A DNA stretch of 53,824 nt from Acidobacteriota bacterium (GTDB taxonomy: Bacteria; Acidobacteriota; Thermoanaerobaculia; Multivoradales; UBA5704). Both the position numbers and the translations under genes were made by a program. The notes beneath the pieces were generated by a model. That model was given only the letters and a program-made list of their open reading frames with translations. It had not been told where the DNA came from and did no database searches. Shown piece by piece: positions 1 to 6,672 of this stretch (its first letter is position 1; each line of letters begins with the position of its first letter). The stretch covers positions 1 to 53,824 of the forward strand of contig JBDTZG010000037.1 of the NCBI GenBank assembly GCA_040005235.1, read 5' to 3'.

Positions 1-1823
1 CCCAGCCCGAACATCAGCACCGGCCCGACCTTCGGCTCGGAAGAGAGGCCGAAGATGATCTCCCGGCCGCCGCCCGCCATCTCCTGGATCAAGAAGCCTT
101 CGATCCTGCCGCCGTCGCTCCGGATGCGAGTTTCCATCGCGGTGAGAGCATCGGAGAGCTGAAGGGGATCGCGCAGATCGAGACGGATCGCGCCCGCTTC
201 GCTCTTGTGGATCAGATCGGCAACGATCGCCTTGGCCACCACCGGATAACCGAGCCGGCGCGCGGCGTGGAGCGCCTCTTCCCGGGTGGTCGCCACTTCA
301 TAGCGGGCGACCGGAATGCCGTACAGCTCCAACACCTGGAACGCATCCCCGGGAGGAAGATACCCCGAGCCGGTGCGCGCGAGCAGGGCGGCCACCGCCG
401 CGTCGTCGGCCGGAAACGGCTCGGGGAGCGGCTCGTCCGGCCGTCGGCGCCACGCGGCGTAGCGGGAAAGCTGCTGGAGCGCCCCGGCCGCCGATTCCGG
501 AAAGCGATAGACGGGCGGCAGGCCCGGCCGCAGCTTGATCGATTCGTAGAATTCCTCGGTCGCCATCATCACCGCGAGAACCGGCTTTTTGCGCGTCCGC
601 GCGGCCTCGTCGATCGCTTCCAGAACGTCGATCGGGCTCGTCAACAAGGGGGTCACGTTGATCGCAATTGCCATGTCGACGTTGGGATCGTCGAGCATTT
701 CGGCGAGCGACTTGCCGTATTTTTCGGCATTCGCCGAAGCGATCATGTCAACCGGATTGTTCACGCTCGCCTCAGCCGGCAGGAAGGAGCGCAGGTGTTC
801 TTTGGTTCCCTCGGCCAGCTCGGCAATCTCTAACCCAAGATTCACGCAGGCATCGGTTGCCATGATCGCCGGCCCGCCCGCGTTGGTCAGAATCGCTACC
901 CGATTCCCCTCCGGGAGCGGGCAGGCGTCGAGAGCGCGGGCGACGTCGAACAGCTGTTCGATCGTGTCGGCCCGCAGCACGCCGCACTGGTCGAGGATCG
1001 CGGAAACCGTGACGTCGGCCCCCGCGATTGCTCCGGTATGAGACGTCGCGGCGCGCGCTCCCGCCGCGGTCCGCCCCGATTTGACCACCAGGATCGGCTT
1101 TTTCCGAGACACGCGCTTGGCGATTTCGGCGAACCGGCGCGGGTTGCCGAACGATTCGAGGTACATCGCGATCACCCGCGTCTCGGGGTCGCCCTCCCAA
1201 TGCTCGATCAGATCGTTGCCCGAAACGTCGGCCTTATTGCCCATCGAGGCGAACTGCGTAAGGCCGATACCCAGATCGCTCGCAACGTTCAAAATCGCCA
1301 CCCCGAGCGCGCCCGATTGCGACACGAAGCCGATCGACCCCACCCGAGCGGGGGTCGGCGCAAACGTCGCGTTCAGGCTCACTTTCGCCTCGGTGTTGAT
1401 GATCCCCATGCAATTCGGGCCGATCATCCGAACCCCGGCCGCGCGCACTTTCTCGCGCAGCAACCGCTCCCGCTCCGCCCCCTCGGCCCCCGTCTCGCCG
1501 AACCCGGCGGTGATCACGACCAATCCCTTCACCCCGTGCTTCAAACACTCGTCGACCGCCCCGAGCACGGCCTCTTTGGGCACCACGATCACCGCCAGAT
1601 CGATCGGATCGGGAATCGCCCCGATCGTCGGATAGCACCGCAGCGAGTGGATCGCCTTGGCCAGAGGGTTCACCGGATAGATGGCACCCGCGAACTCGTT
1701 TGCGACCAGGTTGTGCAGCAACGAATACCCAATCGAATCGCGCCGACGCGAAGCGCCGATCACCGCGATTGAGCGGGGGGAAAACAGAGGATCGAGCGGT
1801 CGGTCGGGGCGGGTTTCGGGCAT
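1..1823 (-). CDS. Acyl-CoA synthetase (NDP-forming), acetate--CoA ligase family; runs off the left edge
   Basis: Manual translation from ATG 1823 gives MPETRPDRPLDPLFSPRSIAVIGASRRRDSIGYSLLHNL...YPVNP, then IGPNCMG, SQSGALG, MGNKADV and TNAGGP, followed by an ATP-grasp region. Absent from the ORF track because no stop lies in the window. Confidence 0.9.
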   Translation of the reverse strand, partial: MPETRPDRPLDPLFSPRSIAVIGASRRRDSIGYSLLHNLVANEFAGAIYPVNPLAKAIHSLRCYPTIGAIPDPIDLAVIVVPKEAVLGAVDECLKHGVKGLVVITAGFGETGAEGAERERLLREKVRAAGVRMIGPNCMGIINTEAKVSLNATFAPTPARVGSIGFVSQSGALGVAILNVASDLGIGLTQFASMGNKADVSGNDLIEHWEGDPETRVIAMYLESFGNPRRFAEIAKRVSRKKPILVVKSGRTAAGARAATSHTGAIAGADVTVSAILDQCGVLRADTIEQLFDVARALDACPLPEGNRVAILTNAGGPAIMATDACVNLGLEIAELAEGTKEHLRSFLPAEASVNNPVDMIASANAEKYGKSLAEMLDDPNVDMAIAINVTPLLTSPIDVLEAIDEAARTRKKPVLAVMMATEEFYESIKLRPGLPPVYRFPESAAGALQQLSRYAAWRRRPDEPLPEPFPADDAAVAALLARTGSGYLPPGDAFQVLELYGIPVARYEVATTREEALHAARRLGYPVVAKAIVADLIHKSEAGAIRLDLRDPLQLSDALTAMETRIRSDGGRIEGFLIQEMAGGGREIIFGLSSEPKVGPVLMFGL

Positions 1824-1897
1824 GGCGGGCGGAAGTTTGTCATAGGGGAGGCGCGACCTCCTGGGCCGCCCGCCGGCCTGCGGTAGAGTTACCCGCC

Positions 1898-2275
1898 ATG
1901 GACGACAAGGATACGAAGGCGGTTCTCGCCGTGGTGCAGCGGGCGGTGGCGGCGGCGCCGGGACGCAAGCACGACCTGGAGTCCGCGATGGGCATAGGGC
2001 ATGGTCGGCTCATCGACCTGGTCAACGGCCAGCTGGAGCTGCGTTCTCGCCATCTAACGGGCCTCGCACGTTATCTGGAGGTGCCGGCGTCTGACTTTTA
2101 CCGCCTGGCGCTCAGCGAGACCGAACGCACCGCGCGGCGCCGGCTGGAAGAGTGGATTGATCCGCTCTCCGCGCCGCCGTTTCCGCGCAGAGACGCACAG
2201 CCGGCCGCCTCCGACGACCGCTTGCGTGCATTGATCCGAGAAGAGTTCGCCGCGGCGCTCGCCGCGCTGAGGTAA
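1898..2275 (+). CDS. Putative XRE/Cro-like helix-turn-helix protein, 125 aa
   Basis: ESAMGIGHGRLIDLVNGQLELRSRHLTGLARYLEVPASDFY resembles an XRE HTH. TAGAGT lies 8 nt before the ATG. Divergent from the synthetase. Confidence 0.6.
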   Translation: MDDKDTKAVLAVVQRAVAAAPGRKHDLESAMGIGHGRLIDLVNGQLELRSRHLTGLARYLEVPASDFYRLALSETERTARRRLEEWIDPLSAPPFPRRDAQPAASDDRLRALIREEFAAALAALR

Positions 2276-2280
2276 AAGAC

Positions 2281-2520
2281 GCGCGCGTCTCGAAATCACC
2301 GCGCGCGACCCAAAACCACCGCACACGTCCCAAGGTTACAGCGCGAGTCCCATATTTACCGGTCAGGTCCCAGGCTTACCGAATTCGTCCCAGAATTACC
2401 GCGCGCGTCCCAAGTTTACCGAACACGCCCCGGGTTCACCGCGCGCGTCCCAGATTCACCGCTGAAGTCCCAGGTTCGGAGAATATGTCCCGGATTCACC
2501 GCGCACGCCCCCGATTCTGC
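2281..2520. repeat. Degenerate tandem array, 12 x 20 bp (consensus ~GCGCRCGTCCCARRTTYACC)
   Basis: Units in exact 20-bp register, e.g. gcgcgcgtcccaagtttacc (2401), gcgcgcgtcccagattcacc (2441), gaattcgtcccagaattacc (2381). Confidence 0.92.
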
Positions 2521-2575
2521 TGTTTGCACCGCGCAGTCAGTCCGTGTTCGGCCGAGAGAACAGTTGCCCGATCAT

Positions 2576-2818
2576 TTAGCGTCCCGCCGCCACCTTTCGT
2601 GCTGCGCCACCAATCGAGCGGCGAGGCACGATCCGTCTCACCTTGCCGGCCGAGATCTCCTCTCGCAGGACCTGACGAACCGCGTCGAGCATCGAGCCCT
2701 GCTGAATTTGGCTGACGAGCGCGTCGTTGATCAGCGTCTGGTAGTTCCCGCCCCCCGCCCGTTCAACGAGCGTCCGGAAATGCTCGATCACCCGGTTGTC
2801 GAGGCGGATGGAGATCTT
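2576..2818 (-). pseudogene. brnA: 5'-truncated BrnA antitoxin (RHH) fragment
   Basis: KISIRLDNRVIEHFRTLVERAGGGNYQTLINDAL is the BrnA core. The N-terminus is missing and the fragment joins out of frame to the end of the upstream ORF. A GTG at 2791 could give a 71-aa product. Confidence 0.75.
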
Positions 2819-3378
2819 TTGTAATATCCACCGGCTTCAGCCAGGAAGTTGAAGAAAATCACTCTTTCCCCTTCAAATGAGACGACAACGGCGTCCTCGA
2901 CGCTAAAGCCTCTGGGTAGGTCCAGCCCGCTGATCACATGGTGTTTCCACACGAGAACCACTTGCCGTTGGTGGGCTTCCAGGCCGATCCACGAAGCCTT
3001 ACCAAAAAGAAGAAGCTTGTTCCTCTCTGCGTCTAGGTCAGCGTACACCTGATCAGCGACAACCCCAAAGCCTCCCTTCCCACGACAGAGTTTTATGGTT
3101 TTTGGTGCCGGCACCTTCTTTCTGCCAAGAATGAAATGACCAGCTACAGTCCCTTGAACCGCTTCCAGCATCGATCCTTGGAGGATCTGACCGACGAGCG
3201 CCTTGTTGATCGAGGCCAGGTAATTTCCATTCCCCACCTCAGCCAACTCGCGGAAATGATCGATCACCCGATTATCGAGGCGAATAGAGACCTTGGTCTT
3301 TCTCGGCTCCGGCTCGACTACCGGGCCGCCGACGGAGAAATCGATGTCGCGATAGGATTCAGTTTCGACCTTTTTCAT
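2788..3378 (-). CDS. BrnA-antitoxin domain fused to an unknown C-terminal domain (copy B), 196 aa
   Basis: N-terminal DIDFS..GPVV...KTKVSIRLDNRVIDHFR...GNYLASINKAL is BrnA-like. The C-terminal ~105 aa are beta-rich and unassigned. Confidence 0.75.
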   Translation of the reverse strand: MKKVETESYRDIDFSVGGPVVEPEPRKTKVSIRLDNRVIDHFRELAEVGNGNYLASINKALVGQILQGSMLEAVQGTVAGHFILGRKKVPAPKTIKLCRGKGGFGVVADQVYADLDAERNKLLLFGKASWIGLEAHQRQVVLVWKHHVISGLDLPRGFSVEDAVVVSFEGERVIFFNFLAEAGGYYKRSPSASTTG

Positions 3379-3440
3379 ATTGCAGCCTCTGTCTATGGTT
3401 CGCCTTCAAGCGGAGATGATCCAGACGATAACGGGAATCC
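3359..3440 (-). pseudogene. brnT: Frameshifted C-terminal remnant of BrnT toxin
   Basis: VWIISA followed by a 1-nt deletion, then KANHRQRLQYEKGRN*. It overlaps the brnA start in TATGAAAAA, as in intact brnTA operons. Confidence 0.6.
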
Positions 3441-3501
3441 ATGAAGCCTGCGCGGTCCAGACCCCGCCTGAATCGCAACGAGATTGTTCCGCGAGAGCGT
3501 C

Positions 3502-4095
3502 TCAAGCCTTTCCTAAAACATCTGCTCGCCGCAAGTAATATCCACCGCATTCATCCAGGAAGTTGAAGAAACTCACTTTTCTCCTTTCAAATGAGACGAC
3601 AACGGCGTCCTCAACGCTAAAGCCTTTGGGTAGGTCCAGCCCGCTGATCACCTGCTGTTTCCACACGAAAACCACTTCCCGTTGTTCCGCTTCCAGGCCG
3701 ATCCACTGAGTGGTGTCAAGAAGGATTCCGTTCTTCCCTGTAGTTAGATCAACGTATACGGAATCAGCGACAACCCCATAGCCTCCTTTGCCACGACAGA
3801 GTTCTAGGGTTTTTGGCGCCGGCACCTTCCTTCTGCCGAACATGAGCTCATCAGCAATGGTCCGCTGAACGGCTTCCAGCATCGATCCTTGGAGAATCTG
3901 ACCGACGAGCGCCTTGTTGATCAAGGCCAAGTAATTTCCATTCCCCCACTCAGCCAGCTCGCGGAAATGATCGATCACCCGATTATCGAGGCGGAGGGAG
4001 ACCTTGGTCTTCCCCAGCTCCGGCTCGATTACCGGGCCGCGCTTGCCGACGGAGAAATCGATGTCGCGATAGGGTTCAGCTTCGACCTTTTTCAT
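3502..4095 (-). CDS. BrnA-antitoxin domain fused to an unknown C-terminal domain (copy A), 197 aa
   Basis: Paralog of 2788..3378 starting MKKVEAEPYRDIDFSVGKRGPVIEPE at ATG 4095. The longer ORF-track start runs into the repeat array. Confidence 0.75.
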   Translation of the reverse strand: MKKVEAEPYRDIDFSVGKRGPVIEPELGKTKVSLRLDNRVIDHFRELAEWGNGNYLALINKALVGQILQGSMLEAVQRTIADELMFGRRKVPAPKTLELCRGKGGYGVVADSVYVDLTTGKNGILLDTTQWIGLEAEQREVVFVWKQQVISGLDLPKGFSVEDAVVVSFERRKVSFFNFLDECGGYYLRRADVLGKA

Positions 4096-4160
4096 ATTGC
4101 AGCCCCTGTCTTTGGTTCGCCTTCCAGGCGGAGATGATCCAGACGATAACGGAGAACCAT
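4076..4160 (-). pseudogene. brnT: C-terminal remnant of BrnT toxin
   Basis: VIVWIISAWKANQRQGLQYEKGRS* matches the BrnT tail (consensus ~IRIISARKAxxxERxxYE). The 5' part is replaced by the 21-bp array. Confidence 0.65.
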
Positions 4161-4174
4161 GAAGTCTGCGCGGT

Positions 4175-4560
4175 CCAGACCCCGGTCGCAGCGGCCGGGA
4201 CCCAGGCCCGGGCCGTCCAGACCTGGATTGCGACGCGCGAGACCTGGTCCGAGCCGTCCAGACCTGGATCGCGACACACGAGACCTGATCCGAGTCGTGC
4301 GGACCTGGATCGCGACACACCCGACTTGGGTGTGAGCCACCCAGACTTGGATCGCAACAGCCCGGACTTCGGTCCCGACCGTTCAGAGCTGGGTCAGGTC
4401 GCCCGGACCTGGGTCGCGACGATCCGGATCCAGGTCTGCGTCACCCAGACCTGGATCGCAACGGCCCAGACCTCGGTCCCTGCCGTTCAGACTGGGTCCG
4501 AGTCGTCCGGACCTGGATCGCGACGACCCAGACCCGGGTCTGAACCGTCCAGACCTGGAT
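4175..4560. repeat. Degenerate tandem array, 19 units of 20/21 bp (core TCCAGACCTGGATCGCGAC)
   Basis: GAC/GAG/GAT anchors at 4178, 4199, 4220, 4241, 4261, 4282, 4302, 4323, 4344, 4365, 4386, 4406, 4427, 4448, 4469, 4490, 4510, 4531 and 4552. Confidence 0.92.
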
Positions 4561-4593
4561 GATCCCTTTGACGAGGCCGTGGGGGGCAAACAG

Positions 4594-5087
4594 GGCCTCG
4601 TCAAAGTCGGAAGCGGCTTGCCGCCTCAGCGCCCGTCCTCGCCGTCCCTCCGCCCTCCCACCGCCCGGGAGAGGGGCGCCCCCGGCGGCCCGTCCGGCCC
4701 AACGGGCCGGGAGAACCCAGCCCAGGGCTGAGGCCGAAGGCCGATGCCCTGGGTTCTAAGACCCTACGGAAAGGCGGCCTGAAAGGCCGCGAGAGCTTTC
4801 AGGCCCACGCGTTAGCGCTCGTCAAATTCGTTTTTCTAGGCCTCCAGGAACGCACGGAGTTCTGCGGATCCGTCGAGCCTGGGTTCTCGCGGCCTTTCAG
4901 GCCGCCAGGAGGTGGAGATCCTTGACCCAGGGCATCGGCCTTCGGCCTCAGCCCTGGGCTAGGTTCTCCCGGCCCGTTGGGCCGGACTCTTGGGTTGCCG
5001 GTGCCGCCTCCTCGCGGTCGATGCCGGCTCCCACCCCGGAGACCGGCGGGGGGAGAGGGCTCCGCAAGCGCTGACTTTGACGAGGCC
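4594..5087. mobile_element. MITE-like element with 15-bp terminal inverted repeats
   Basis: GGCCTCGTCAAAGTC (4594-4608) is the perfect inverse of GACTTTGACGAGGCC (5073-5087). An extra end copy CTTTGACGAGGCC lies at 4566-4578. No transposase ORF. Confidence 0.55.
4692..4987. repeat. REP doublet / REPIN-like long inverted repeat
   Basis: 63-bp arms 4692-4754 and 4925-4987 (1 mismatch), plus perfect 22-bp inner arms 4773-4794 and 4885-4906. Built from GGCC-loop-GGCC hairpins. Confidence 0.85.
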
Positions 5088-5168
5088 TTGCGGGGGGGGC
5101 GCACCCGCCTTGCGCCGATCGCGGCACGGGCGTATCGTTACGCTCAGCTTTCACTTCAAGAGGCATCA

Positions 5169-5717
5169 GTGACCACCGAACACCACAAATTTCGCGAGCT
5201 GATCGTGTTCGTCGCGCGCGAGACAGAAGACGATCGGAGCTGCGGTGCCACCAAGCTCAACAAGATCCTCTTCTACTCCGATTTCCGCGCCTACGAGCAA
5301 CTCGGCCAGTCGATCACCGGCGAGCGCTACCAAAAGCTTGAGCATGGGCCCGCGCCACGACGGATGGTCCCGGTGGCTGAGTCGATGGCTGCCGAAGGGC
5401 TCTGCACGTGGGAAGAGCGCGATTATTTCGGCTTCCCCCTACGCAAGCTTGTGCCGCTCCGCGAGCCGGACCTCTCACAGTTTTCCGCGTCAGAAATCGA
5501 CCTGGCGCGGGGCGTGATCGGCGAATTGGCTTCCTTGAACGCGAAAGAAGTCAGCGACCTGTCGCACCGCTTTGCCGGCTGGCAGGCGACTGACATCGGC
5601 GAGGACATTCCTTACGCCACCGTATTCGTGGACGAGTCGCGGCCGTTCACCCTCGACGAACTCACTTGGGCGCTCGAGGTCGTGGATGCCTACGAAGCGG
5701 CCGAGAAAGCTTGTTAG
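5169..5717 (+). CDS. Panacea-domain (DUF4065/SocA-like) antitoxin, 182 aa
   Basis: Motifs GATKLNKILFYSDF...G.SITG..Y.KL.HGP.P and SDLSH...W....GEDIPY. GTG start with AAGAGG upstream. Confidence 0.88.
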   Translation: MTTEHHKFRELIVFVARETEDDRSCGATKLNKILFYSDFRAYEQLGQSITGERYQKLEHGPAPRRMVPVAESMAAEGLCTWEERDYFGFPLRKLVPLREPDLSQFSASEIDLARGVIGELASLNAKEVSDLSHRFAGWQATDIGEDIPYATVFVDESRPFTLDELTWALEVVDAYEAAEKAC

Positions 5718-5790
5718 AAAGCGGGAGTACCAGCAAGAGGTCGACAGAATCCGGCATGAGGTCGTTAACGACGATGAAGAAAGAATATGA
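5686..5790 (+). pseudogene. 34-aa chimeric toxin remnant (start of the Panacea partner joined to a BrnT-like tail)
   Basis: GAGGT RBS then MPTKRPRKLVRKREYQQEVDRIRHEVVNDDEERI*. It overlaps the Panacea stop and ends in the ATGAAGAAAGAATATGA overlap typical of brnT/brnA junctions. Confidence 0.45.
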
Positions 5791-6076
5791 CTTCACCGCG
5801 GGCCGACGTGGCCCCGTGGTCACCAACCCGCCGGGGAGCCGGATCTCGATCCGGCTCGACGATGACCTTCTCGAGTGGTTCAAGGAACAGGTTCATGCGG
5901 CAGGGGGAGGGAACTATCAAACCCTCATCAACTCCGCACTCCGGGAGCACGTCCATCAGAGGCGGGAGCCGTTGGAGGAGACGCTGCGGCGCGTTGTGAG
6001 AGCTGAGCTGGACGCTAAACTTTCGCCTGCCAACATGGGTACGCGCCAAGCGGTATCTGCAGGCCGGCGGCGCTGA
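5774..6076 (+). CDS. brnA: BrnA antitoxin family protein (orphan), 100 aa
   Basis: MKKEYDFTAGRRGPVV...RISIRLDDDLLEWFK...GGGNYQTLINSALRE. Confidence 0.9.
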   Translation: MKKEYDFTAGRRGPVVTNPPGSRISIRLDDDLLEWFKEQVHAAGGGNYQTLINSALREHVHQRREPLEETLRRVVRAELDAKLSPANMGTRQAVSAGRRR

Positions 6077-6177
6077 GCCACGCTATTCGGCAGGGTCGCA
6101 TGCGATCCCGGCCCGAAATCAGCGATCTCGCCGGTGGGAAGAGTGATGCCGCCAAACGCGAAGAAGGAGATAGAAGT

Positions 6178-6672
6178 ATGGCGACCGAAGGTGGCAGATG
6201 TCACTGGGCACGAGCCGGAGGGCTCGTTCTTCTCTGCCTGGCCGGGTGCCTTTCGACGGCCGGGAGTCGAACGTCTCCGCCCAAGGTCGGGGGTCGCCTC
6301 CCGTGCGAGTTCGAAGGGACGCACTATGGAATCAGCTCAGCCCAAATCGCGCCGGGTTGTACCGTCACGATCGCTGGTATCACCTACTTCGTTGCCTCTT
6401 TGGATCGGCGACACGTGGCGTACATCCAGACTGCGGACTCCCGGTTCGTCTCGCCGGAAGGATTGAGGGTCGGTTCGTCACTCCAAGACGTGAGGAATGC
6501 CGGAGGAGGCGAAAGGGTCGGAGAGAGGGGTTGGAAGTACTTTTCAAACTTGCCTTCTGGTTGGCGGGCCGAATTCACTGGCATGCCCGATCATGGAGAG
6601 CCGCGACCCAACGACCTACTCTCGAATGTGCCGGGCGACACCGTGGTCTCATTCAGCCGAAGAGGCGATTGA
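6178..6672 (+). CDS. Hypothetical lipoprotein, 164 aa
   Basis: AAGGAG RBS, hydrophobic stretch and LAGC lipobox. Contains SPEGLRVGSS. Confidence 0.65.
   Translation: MATEGGRCHWARAGGLVLLCLAGCLSTAGSRTSPPKVGGRLPCEFEGTHYGISSAQIAPGCTVTIAGITYFVASLDRRHVAYIQTADSRFVSPEGLRVGSSLQDVRNAGGGERVGERGWKYFSNLPSGWRAEFTGMPDHGEPRPNDLLSNVPGDTVVSFSRRGD

What the first reader, a model, noticed from the sequence alone, without database searches (positions are those of the whole stretch)
2576..4184. Tandem BrnA antitoxins that lost BrnT and gained an unknown, patchily diversifying C-terminal domain
Seen: two ~0.7-kb duplicated units each encode a BrnA-like RHH region fused to ~105 extra residues ending FSVEDAVVVSFE...FFNFL...GGYY. 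A third, unfused BrnA fragment follows and marks where normal BrnA ends. DNA is nearly identical in blocks, but substitutions cluster in patches (RTIADELMF vs GTVAGHFIL, TTGKNGILLDTTQ vs DAERNKLLLFGKAS, RRKVS vs GERVI). Both frames stayed open while the brnT upstream of each decayed. Known: BrnA is normally a stand-alone ~100-aa antitoxin and repressor. Inference: a domesticated antitoxin DNA-binding module coupled to a sensing or binding domain with diverging specificity.
Basis: partly seen in the sequence, partly recalled or inferred. Interest (0 to 1): 0.72.

Follow-up and report, generated by a model that had tools for sequence, protein, structure and literature searches.

The report
Antitoxin fused to captured secreted domain
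Two neighbouring, diverged copies of a one-off hybrid gene join a BrnA antitoxin that has lost its toxin to the body of a small, normally exported protein of unknown function; it is a local gene fusion of uncertain usefulness, not a new kind of system.

Summary
On the minus strand lie two ~715-nt units, 81-87% identical. Each holds a ~25-codon brnT stub and an open 196/197-aa frame. A 5'-truncated plain brnA follows.

The extra C-terminal ~100 residues are not an orphan sequence. They are the mature part of an unnamed family with 156 cluster representatives at E<=0.001. It has no Pfam or NCBIfam model and models as an all-beta fold (pLDDT 95) with no PDB neighbour. Elsewhere this family mostly carries a signal peptide, and 10 of 12 genome loci are Acidobacteriota. 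Here BrnA replaces the signal peptide.

The fusion has no counterpart in the protein collections searched. Contigs of close relatives carry a plain 110-aa BrnA.

The "patchy diversification" is patchy at silent sites too (p=0.0007). That points to mosaic ancestry or gene conversion, not diverging specificity.

Evidence for selection is mixed:
- BrnA core dN/dS is 0.31.
- Changes in the captured domain avoid conserved columns (p=0.01), but its overall dN/dS is 0.91.
- The BrnA stem branch is about tenfold accelerated.
- Copy 2 has lost near-invariant BrnA residues.

Best reading: a young chimeric gene pair. Copy 1 is probably still a working toxin-less ribbon-helix-helix protein, and copy 2 is drifting. 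Modest interest.

The parts
4175..4560 (.). Upstream tandem array, about 19 units of 20-21 bp (CCAGACCTGGATCGCGAC-like, containing the dyad TCCAG-NN-CTGGA). It occupies the place where the rest of brnT and its promoter would lie.
   Evidence: TRF rows, register print, motif confined to this site.
4074..4160 (-). brnT 3' stub of unit 1 (28 codons plus stop, ...IISAWKANQRQGLQYEKGRS*). It overlaps the start of copy 1 by 22 nt and carries the Shine-Dalgarno-like AGGGG 7 nt before the ATG.
   Evidence: Translation; weak end-to-end match to an annotated BrnT; same overlap geometry as annotated brnT-brnA pairs; not recognised by Pfam.
3805..4095 (-). Copy 1, BrnA-derived part (residues 1-97): conserved N-terminal segment, ribbon-helix-helix core (strand near 31-37, helices 38-50 and 55-69), third helix 72-87, basic linker 88-97.
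   Evidence: Pfam, homologues, alignment, AlphaFold model, tree.
3502..3804 (-). Copy 1, captured all-beta domain (residues 98-197, with stop). This is the mature part of an unnamed family of small exported proteins.
   Evidence: phmmer against 1.84 billion representatives, alignment A2, AlphaFold pLDDT 95.3.
3467..3534 (-). Sequence unique to unit 1: the last 10 codons and stop of copy 1, then a 35-nt spacer before unit 2.
   Evidence: Unit alignment.
3379..3466 (-). One array-like unit and the brnT 3' stub of unit 2, broken by a stop and a 1-nt indel. The Shine-Dalgarno-like AGAGG is retained.
3094..3378 (-). Copy 2, BrnA-derived part (residues 1-95). It has a 2-codon in-frame deletion and more losses of near-invariant BrnA residues than copy 1.
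2788..3093 (-). Copy 2, captured all-beta domain. Family homology ends at GGYYKR (about 2815). The last 8 codons are read out of frame from the truncated native brnA.
2576..2818 (-). Native-type brnA lacking its first 30 codons (codons 31-110 plus stop). GC3 is 0.80, like host genes. It sits next to P0004 in the tree.
2287..2520 (.). Downstream tandem array, about 12 units of 20 bp (GTCCCAnnnTYACCGnnnnn).

Best explanation
A lineage-specific chimeric gene, duplicated in tandem.

How it arose:
- An in-frame join put an almost complete BrnA antitoxin in front of the mature part of a small all-beta protein. The BrnA part spans residues 1 to about 90-97: the conserved N-terminal segment, the ribbon-helix-helix DNA-binding core and a third helix.
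- Everywhere else that all-beta protein is exported, so the signal peptide was replaced by BrnA and the domain is now cytoplasmic.
- The toxin gene brnT survives only as a ~25-codon stub that still supplies the ribosome-binding region.
- The ~715-nt unit (stub plus fused gene) was then duplicated.
- The block sits where close relatives probably carry a plain 110-aa brnA. Its arrival cut off the first 30 codons of that native gene.
- The patchwork of near-identical blocks and diverged patches reflects mosaic ancestry (gene conversion or recombination between paralogues). It does not reflect selection for new binding specificities.

How it probably works (inferred, about 0.4-0.5 on its own):
- Copy 1 is still made and works as a toxin-less ribbon-helix-helix dimer that binds DNA. 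That would make it an autoregulator or orphan antitoxin carrying two beta domains on flexible linkers.
- Copy 2 is drifting towards a pseudogene.

Shown here: the anatomy, the homologies, the lack of any counterpart in the collections searched, the composition and the substitution patterns. Inferred: expression, DNA binding, and any role of the captured domain.
For: Anatomy and the BrnA part:
- In one search, 115 of 117 hits are BrnA proteins covering only 31-68% of the query; 114 of them are 108-145 aa and one is 226 aa.
- In the tree (110 rows) the fused pair (support 100/100) sits inside a 13-row clade (99/98) that also holds the native fragment.

The captured domain:
- 156 hits at E<=0.001 and 45 at E<=1e-10.
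- 104 of 149 relatives have a hydrophobic N-terminal segment ahead of the domain (heuristic). By eye, so do 11 of 12 genome loci.
- The fused proteins have no such segment (maximum hydropathy 1.37).
- AlphaFold gives pLDDT 95.3 for the domain alone. In the full-length model the domain scores 97 and the linker about 57.

Foreign or late origin:
- GC3 is 0.52-0.58 in the domain and 0.62-0.71 in the BrnA part, against 0.80-0.84 in host genes and 0.80 in the native fragment.
- The neighbouring acs gene has 93-96% identical homologues on contigs of the same lengths as those carrying intact BrnA P0004, P0009, P0010 and P0006.

Mosaic ancestry:
- Silent and replacement differences cluster together.

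Constraint:
- BrnA core dN/dS is 0.31 (8 silent, 9 replacement changes; one-sided p=0.024).
- Differences in the captured domain hit 5 of 36 family-conserved columns against 23 of 58 variable ones (p=0.010).
- All 13 invariant or near-invariant family positions are kept in both copies.
- Both indels inside the frames are multiples of 3, while the one in the stub is 1 nt.
- The chance of no stop after 76 random substitutions is 0.09-0.13.
- The domain's root-to-tip length is ordinary for its family (1.52 and 1.47 against a median of 1.37).

Copy 2 decaying:
- Its end branch is 0.24 against 0.073 for copy 1.
- It keeps 34 of 47 near-invariant BrnA columns against 39 of 47 for copy 1.

Literature:
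- BrnA alone binds its own promoter, according to a passage in PMC10714953 that cites Heaton 2012.
Against: - dN/dS of the captured domain between the copies is 0.91, not different from neutral (11 silent, 33 replacement changes; p=0.85).
- The BrnA part sits on a stem of 0.72 changes per site, against a median end branch of 0.072.
- Both copies have lost residues that are 100% conserved in 106 BrnA relatives (Q56L, R77Q). They keep fewer conserved columns than any of those relatives (39 and 34 of 47; family minimum 40 of 44).
- Both score below Pfam's gathering cutoff.
- Differences between the copies in the BrnA part do not avoid conserved columns (8 of 47 conserved columns differ, by my count).
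- No sigma-70-like promoter was found in 2200-5000. This is weak evidence, because the promoters of this phylum may differ.
- A domain built for export may not be useful in the cytoplasm.
- The fusion was seen in one contig only.
- Synteny with relatives rests on equal contig lengths, not on sequence I could read.
- The statistics rest on small counts. The tests are not independent of the mosaic structure.
Confidence: 0.55

Rival explanations
1. Both fused frames are dead relics. A rearrangement in a decaying toxin-antitoxin islet joined a brnA remnant to a fragment of a secreted-protein gene. The frames are open by luck, and neither protein does anything.
For: - The fusion is a singleton in about 15 billion proteins.
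- brnT is reduced to stubs.
- The native brnA is truncated.
- The captured domain has lost its signal peptide.
- dN/dS of the domain is 0.91.
- The BrnA stem is about tenfold accelerated, with losses at invariant positions.
- GC3 lies below the host level, as expected for unselected DNA under AT-biased mutation. That bias is recalled general knowledge; the GC3 values are.
- Open frames after 76 random substitutions are not rare (0.09-0.13).
- No promoter-like site was found.
Against: - BrnA core dN/dS is 0.31 (p=0.024).
- Replacement changes in the captured domain avoid conserved columns (p=0.010), and all 13 key positions are kept in both copies.
- 2 of 2 indels inside the frames are in frame, while the non-coding stub has a 1-nt indel.
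- Both copies retain a Shine-Dalgarno-like motif at the right distance.
- The domain shows no excess branch length in its family tree.
Confidence: 0.3
2. One reading: a domesticated antitoxin DNA-binding module coupled to a sensing or binding domain whose two copies are being driven apart by selection for different specificities.
For: - The architecture is real, and the domain is a compact fold on a flexible linker.
- Differences cluster.
- Residues 132-187 have 15 replacement against 2 silent differences (dN/dS 2.3).
- Replacement changes fall on family-variable columns.
Against: - The most diverged patch is equally diverged at silent sites (dS 0.79, dN/dS 0.65; heterogeneity p=0.0007).
- The 2.3 ratio is not significant (p=0.21).
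- The family is exported elsewhere, and no ligand or partner is known.
- Copy 2 looks degraded in its BrnA part, not specialised.
Confidence: 0.08
3. Assembly artefact: the lower-GC block (about 2820-4170), bounded by tandem arrays, comes from another organism in the sample and was joined in by the assembler.
For: - There is a sharp GC drop (0.51-0.57 against 0.63-0.73 in the flanks) and a GC3 drop.
- Tandem arrays, which are hard to assemble, lie on both sides.
- The contig appears to be from a metagenome-assembled genome. Its best-named homologues are MAG proteins.
Against: - The two copies differ by 13-19%, so they are not a collapsed or expanded repeat.
- The BrnA part of the block belongs to the same narrow BrnA clade as the native fragment and the relatives' genes.
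- The junction with the native brnA falls inside a gene with no long shared sequence that could mislead an assembler.
Confidence: 0.05

Closest known systems
BrnT/BrnA type II toxin-antitoxin system (Pfam PF04365 / PF14384, formerly DUF4415; Brucella abortus prototype)
   Same: - Residues 1 to about 90 are homologous to BrnA (E down to 7e-31). The shared features are the conserved N-terminal AEPYRDIDFS segment, the strand K-[VI]-S-[IL]-R-L-D and the two helices.
- A brnT-like stub overlaps the start codon, as in annotated operons.
[quoted passage not shown]
   Different: - There is no intact toxin gene.
- The protein is twice the normal length, and the basic C-terminal tail is replaced by a ~100-residue beta domain.
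- The Pfam score is below cutoff.
- Q56 and R77, invariant in 106 relatives, are changed.
- The branch is about tenfold accelerated.
Orphan (toxin-less) antitoxins
   Same: It is an antitoxin gene kept without its toxin. The review PMC7354431 (passages read) lists three proposed roles: remnants of degraded systems, regulators, or anti-addiction modules.
   Different: Those cases are plain antitoxins. Here the antitoxin is fused to an unrelated captured domain and duplicated.
Unnamed family of small exported all-beta proteins (e.g. P0119-P0267; loci L001-L012, 10 of 12 from Acidobacteriota)
   Same: - Residues ~98-192 share the family motif KGG.G...Y.....N.L.....W.G...V........P..F......SFE....FF.F....GGYY.R.
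- The domain is 37-49% identical to its closest members.
- The model is a confident fold of nine strands.
   Different: - Family members start with a signal-peptide-like segment or another extracytoplasmic domain. The window's copies start with BrnA instead.
- The family has no Pfam, NCBIfam, PHROGs or PADLOC model.
- It has no PDB or viral fold neighbour (0 matches at E<=0.001, best TM below 0.3 for PDB).
Ribbon-helix-helix regulators with a C-terminal effector domain, such as NikR (named from memory as the type case)
   Same: The order is the same: an N-terminal ribbon-helix-helix DNA-binding part, then a separate C-terminal domain. This is what the fused protein would work like if it is functional. 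The window's fourth BrnA-like gene gives weak NCBIfam hits to the NikR N-terminus (E 0.004, far below cutoff).
   Different: No homology of the C-terminal domain to NikR or to any known sensor was found. No ligand is known. This is a resemblance of layout only.

Membership tests
BrnA antitoxin family (PF14384) | Scores at or above the Pfam gathering cutoff (26.1 bits) | tested here: not met
   Copy 2 scores 22.1 bits and copy 1 20.2 bits. The truncated native fragment scores 30.3 bits and the fourth gene (5774-6076) 43 bits.
BrnA antitoxin family (PF14384) | Significant sequence homology to BrnA proteins over the BrnA length | tested here: met
   115 BrnA hits with E from 7e-31 to 6e-15, and 68% identity to P0004 over residues 1-96. 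The fused pair nests inside a BrnA clade with 99/98 support.
BrnA antitoxin family (PF14384) | Keeps the near-invariant residues of the family | tested here: inconclusive
   Copy 1 keeps 39 of 47 and copy 2 keeps 34 of 47 columns that are at least 90% conserved. Both have Q56L and R77Q. The native fragment keeps 31 of 31. The least conserved of the 106 relatives keeps 40 of 44.
BrnA antitoxin family (PF14384) | Stand-alone protein of about 100-110 aa | tested here: not met
   The proteins are 197 and 196 aa with a second domain. 114 of 115 relatives are 108-145 aa.
BrnT/BrnA type II toxin-antitoxin system | Intact brnT directly upstream, overlapping brnA | tested here: not met
   Only stubs of about 25 codons remain. 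Pfam sees no BrnT. tblastn found no BrnT N-terminus anywhere in the window.
BrnT/BrnA type II toxin-antitoxin system | Antitoxin neutralises BrnT and represses its own promoter | not testable with these tools
   This needs toxicity-rescue and DNA-binding assays.
Unnamed exported all-beta protein family (P0119 and relatives) | Significant homology over the whole ~95-residue domain | tested here: met
   E 1.7e-20 to P0119 over query residues 6-97. 45 representatives have E<=1e-10.
Unnamed exported all-beta protein family (P0119 and relatives) | Invariant and near-invariant positions (W37, F75, R95; G11, G13, N28, G39, F65, S74, E76, F82, G91, Y93 in domain numbering) | tested here: met
   13 of 13 are kept in both copies.
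Unnamed exported all-beta protein family (P0119 and relatives) | N-terminal signal peptide or other extracytoplasmic N-terminal part | tested here: not met
   104 of 149 relatives have a hydrophobic N-terminal segment. The fused proteins have none (maximum 11-residue hydropathy 1.37 against a threshold of 2.0).
Diversity-generating retroelement target (considered for the patchy variation) | Differences confined to adenine positions of one copy | tested here: not met
   At the 76 differing sites copy 1 has A at 20 and copy 2 at 17. All four bases are involved, with 47 transitions and 29 transversions. I did not look for a reverse transcriptase gene.

The most novel reading that the evidence does not exclude
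Copy 1 is a newly born, working DNA-binding protein. It would be a re-tooled ribbon-helix-helix dimer that uses a beta domain captured from an exported protein as a cytoplasmic partner-binding or self-association module. It would act on the dyad-bearing 20-21-bp arrays that bracket the locus and form a repeated protein-DNA array, as iteron- or centromere-binding ribbon-helix-helix proteins do. It would be a caught-in-the-act case of an antitoxin turning into a new regulator through capture of a secreted domain.
Probability: 0.08. Interest if true: 0.7.

Novelty: new variant of a known kind. Interest (0 to 1): 0.4.

Why it matters
If copy 1 works, this is a dated example of gene birth. An antitoxin outlives its toxin, fuses to a domain taken from an exported protein, and is duplicated. 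Close relatives still seem to show the starting state.

It also flags an unnamed family of small exported proteins, mostly from Acidobacteriota. The family has a confidently modelled all-beta fold with no solved neighbour and deserves a family entry and a structure.

If both copies are relics, the locus is simply a well-preserved record of how toxin-antitoxin islets decay. That is ordinary. Either way it does not open a long-standing question.

Tried and rejected
Searches that found nothing:
- Diversity-generating retroelement: rejected from the substitution spectrum.
- Known RNA families in 1800-6300: none.
- Defence-system and phage family libraries: no hit for the fused proteins or three family members.
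- NCBIfam: none for the fused proteins or the family.
- PDB by sequence: none for copy 1 or for the family profile beyond E 0.79.
- Foldseek against PDB and viral models: 0 matches at E<=0.001. The weak top hits were beta-propeller or PRYSPRY-type proteins with TM below 0.3 for PDB.
- ESM Atlas: no usable hit for the domain or for P0124. Its own models are poor, with pLDDT 0.47 and 0.37.
- Plasmid collection: no relative of the captured domain.
- Word-index protein search with the domain alone: one hit only, P0269 at 49% identity, and no source names.
- Internal duplication within the domain: none (hhalign of the two halves).
- Gene-conversion tract from the native brnA fragment into either copy: none visible.
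- Promoter and terminator scan of 2200-5000: nothing found.

Context of the domain in 12 genome loci:
- I scanned 59 of the 78 listed neighbour frames. I dropped 8 frames holding only the domain, plus 11 distal or short antisense frames.
- There is no conserved partner and no BrnA or BrnT. One locus (L010) has an RHS-repeat protein directly upstream.
- No similar tandem arrays occur near those loci.

Steps that did not run:
I used a degenerate motif scan instead.
- Complex prediction, to test dimerisation of the BrnA part, was never accepted because the queue was full. There is no verdict.
- Heaton et al. 2012 is not held. What I say about BrnTA biochemistry comes from passages in PMC5086665 and PMC10714953.
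Full report
**Observation**

The finding is real and lies on the minus strand. Two open frames, 3502-4095 (197 aa, copy 1) and 2788-3378 (196 aa, copy 2), sit in direct repeats spaced 711-718 nt apart. The two units align over 721 columns at 81% identity, with blocks of 84-94%.

Right after the ...GGYY of copy 2, in another frame, a BrnA gene starts at its codon 31 and runs to a normal stop (2576-2818). It is 87.5% identical to the 110-aa BrnA P0004 over residues 31-110.

The 76 differences in 555 aligned coding positions are clustered. The index of dispersion is 2.0, reached by 9 of 10,000 permutations.

Upstream of each start codon there is an ~85-nt stretch that is ~91% alike. In copy 1 it reads ...IISAWKANQRQGLQYEKGRS* and overlaps the ATG. 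In copy 2 it carries a stop and a 1-nt indel. An annotated BrnT ends ...LISARRATRQEAKAYEG and overlaps its brnA by 11 nt. The match to the stub is weak (6 of 16 identities, E 0.066) and Pfam does not see it. "brnT remnant" is therefore likely but not proven. No BrnT N-terminus was found anywhere in the window.

**The BrnA part**

Of 117 proteins found with copy 1, only the window's own two cover it fully. The other 115 are BrnA proteins that cover 31-68% of the query; 114 of them are 108-145 aa.

Homology to BrnA runs from residue 1 to about 90. DNA identity to the native fragment falls to chance after codon ~90.

The full-length AlphaFold model shows:
- a poorly defined N-terminus;
- helices at 38-50, 55-69 and 72-87;
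- a low-confidence linker at 88-97;
- a domain at pLDDT ~97.

In a tree of 110 BrnA sequences the fused pair (support 100/100) lies inside a 13-row clade (99/98). That clade also holds the native fragment, which pairs with P0004 at 88/83. The fused pair sits on a stem of 0.72 changes per site, against a median end branch of 0.072.

Of 47 columns that are at least 90% conserved in 106 relatives, copy 1 keeps 39 and copy 2 keeps 34. Both have Q56L and R77Q. The native fragment keeps 31 of 31. Both fused proteins score below Pfam's cutoff.

**The C-terminal part**

Residues 95-197 of copy 1, searched against 1.84 billion cluster representatives, gave 156 hits at E<=0.001 and 45 at E<=1e-10. Typical members are 125-150 aa, with the domain at the C-terminus behind a signal-peptide-like segment.

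- By a simple hydropathy rule, 104 of 149 relatives have such a segment. 27 have fewer than 20 residues ahead of the domain; many of these are fragments, and in some my anchor fired too early. 18 have none.
- A few members carry another N-terminal extracytoplasmic part, for example CarboxypepD_reg in P0210 and L001.
- None of 148 scanned members has BrnA, and 145 of 148 have no Pfam family at E<=0.01. I left out the window's own copy 2 and a 1327-aa repeat protein that matched only a short stretch.
- NCBIfam, PHROGs and PADLOC give nothing.

With the family alignment the domain models at pLDDT 95.3 and pTM 0.86 as nine beta strands. Foldseek finds no neighbour at E<=0.001 in the PDB or in viral models. 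A profile search of PDB sequences also finds nothing.

A degenerate motif scan of one genome per species found 12 loci. Ten are from Acidobacteriota, one from Verrucomicrobiae and one from Pseudomonadota. Their neighbours vary and include no BrnA or BrnT. The window's own genome was not among the 12 loci.

So the "unknown domain" is the mature part of an unnamed family of exported proteins. In the fusion, BrnA stands where the signal peptide should be.

**History of the locus**

GC3 values:

| Sequence | GC3 |
|---|---|
| Host genes | 0.80-0.84 |
| Native brnA fragment | 0.80 |
| Fused BrnA part | 0.62-0.71 |
| Captured domain | 0.52-0.58 |
| Genes of the domain family elsewhere | 0.49-0.59 |

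The adjacent acs gene has 93-96% identical homologues on contigs of 100187, 40219, 11590 and 13535 bp. These are the same lengths as the contigs that carry the intact BrnA proteins P0004, P0009, P0010 and P0006. Close relatives, which by the source names of more distant homologues are Thermoanaerobaculia, therefore probably have a plain brnA here. This is indirect, because I could not read those contigs.

Each fused protein is a one-member cluster on one contig.

The likely order of events is inferred:
1. brnA fused to the captured domain.
2. Most of brnT was lost.
3. The unit was duplicated.
4. The block was joined to the native brnA at codon 31.

The position of step 4 in this order is not fixed.

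**Selection**

Between the copies (Nei-Gojobori method; Fisher tests):

| Region | Silent / replacement changes | dN/dS | p |
|---|---|---|---|
| BrnA core, residues 1-77 | 8 / 9 | 0.31-0.32 | 0.024 (one-sided) |
| Residues 78-98 | not listed | 0.91 | not tested |
| Captured domain | 11 / 33 | 0.91 | 0.85 |
| Residues 132-187 | 2 / 15 | 2.3 | 0.21 |

The most diverged patch (residues 112-131) is also diverged at silent sites, with dS 0.79. It has 7 silent differences in ~14 silent sites, against 2 in ~38 for residues 132-187 (p=0.0007). The patchiness therefore reflects different ages of segments, which means gene conversion or recombination. It does not reflect selection on the protein alone.

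Replacement differences in the domain do avoid family-conserved columns (5 of 36 against 23 of 58; p=0.010), and all 13 key positions are kept in both copies. The domain's branch length is ordinary for its family.

Both indels inside the frames are multiples of three. Open frames after 76 random substitutions have a chance of 0.09-0.13.

Copy 2 carries most of the post-duplication losses at conserved BrnA positions.

**Reading**

I favour a young chimeric gene pair in which copy 1 is still a working, toxin-less ribbon-helix-helix protein and copy 2 is drifting (0.55). BrnA alone can bind its own promoter, according to a passage in PMC10714953. Orphan antitoxins are discussed as remnants, regulators or anti-addiction modules in passages of PMC7354431.

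The main rival is that both copies are relics (0.3). An assembly chimera cannot be excluded without reads (0.05).

**Left unchecked**

- The relatives' contigs could not be read.
- No expression data were examined.
- The dimer prediction never ran because the queue was full.
- Heaton et al. 2012 is not held.

Noticed in passing
window 2287-2520 and 4175-4560: Two tandem arrays bracket the locus in the same orientation. One has about 12 units of 20 bp (GTCCCAnnnTYACCG...). The other has about 19 units of 20-21 bp (CCAGACCTGGATCGCGAC...) containing the dyad TCCAG-NN-CTGGA. Their periods are not multiples of three, and both motifs occur only here in the 54-kb window. Each duplicated unit begins with one array-like unit. 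They could be protein-binding repeats. Nothing similar lies near the domain's relatives elsewhere.
   Followed up: partly
window 4692-4987: A 63-nt inverted repeat, 98% complementary (4692-4754 / 4925-4987), has a nested perfect 22-nt inverted repeat (4773-4794 / 4885-4906). It lies between the upstream array and the Panacea gene. There is no Rfam match. It looks like a hairpin-forming or miniature mobile element.
   Followed up: partly
window 5136-6076 (+): A SocA/Panacea-domain protein (5136-5717; Pfam E 1.4e-14) is followed 56 nt later by a fourth, very divergent BrnA-like gene (5774-6076; Pfam E 6e-11; end branch 2.3 in the tree). This is two antitoxin-type proteins side by side with no recognisable toxin. 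The Panacea paper PMC8832971 does not mention BrnA or DUF4415 (term search).
   Followed up: partly
L010 3980-7902 (-): In one Acidobacteriales genome the small exported family member lies 15 nt downstream of an RHS-repeat protein of at least 1166 aa. This is the position where immunity genes of polymorphic toxins often sit (that point is recalled). It occurs in only 1 of 12 loci.
   Followed up: no
window 1889-2275 (+) and 6178-6672 (+): Two flanking open frames have no family match. One is a 128-aa protein next to the downstream array. The other is a 164-aa protein whose N-terminus looks lipoprotein-like by eye.
   Followed up: no
L003 and L011, L005: Three of the 12 loci with the exported family gene have transposase or integrase genes within 2-3 kb: Mu-type in L003, DDE transposase and phage integrase in L011, and IS200 in L005. 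The family may sometimes travel with mobile DNA.
   Followed up: no
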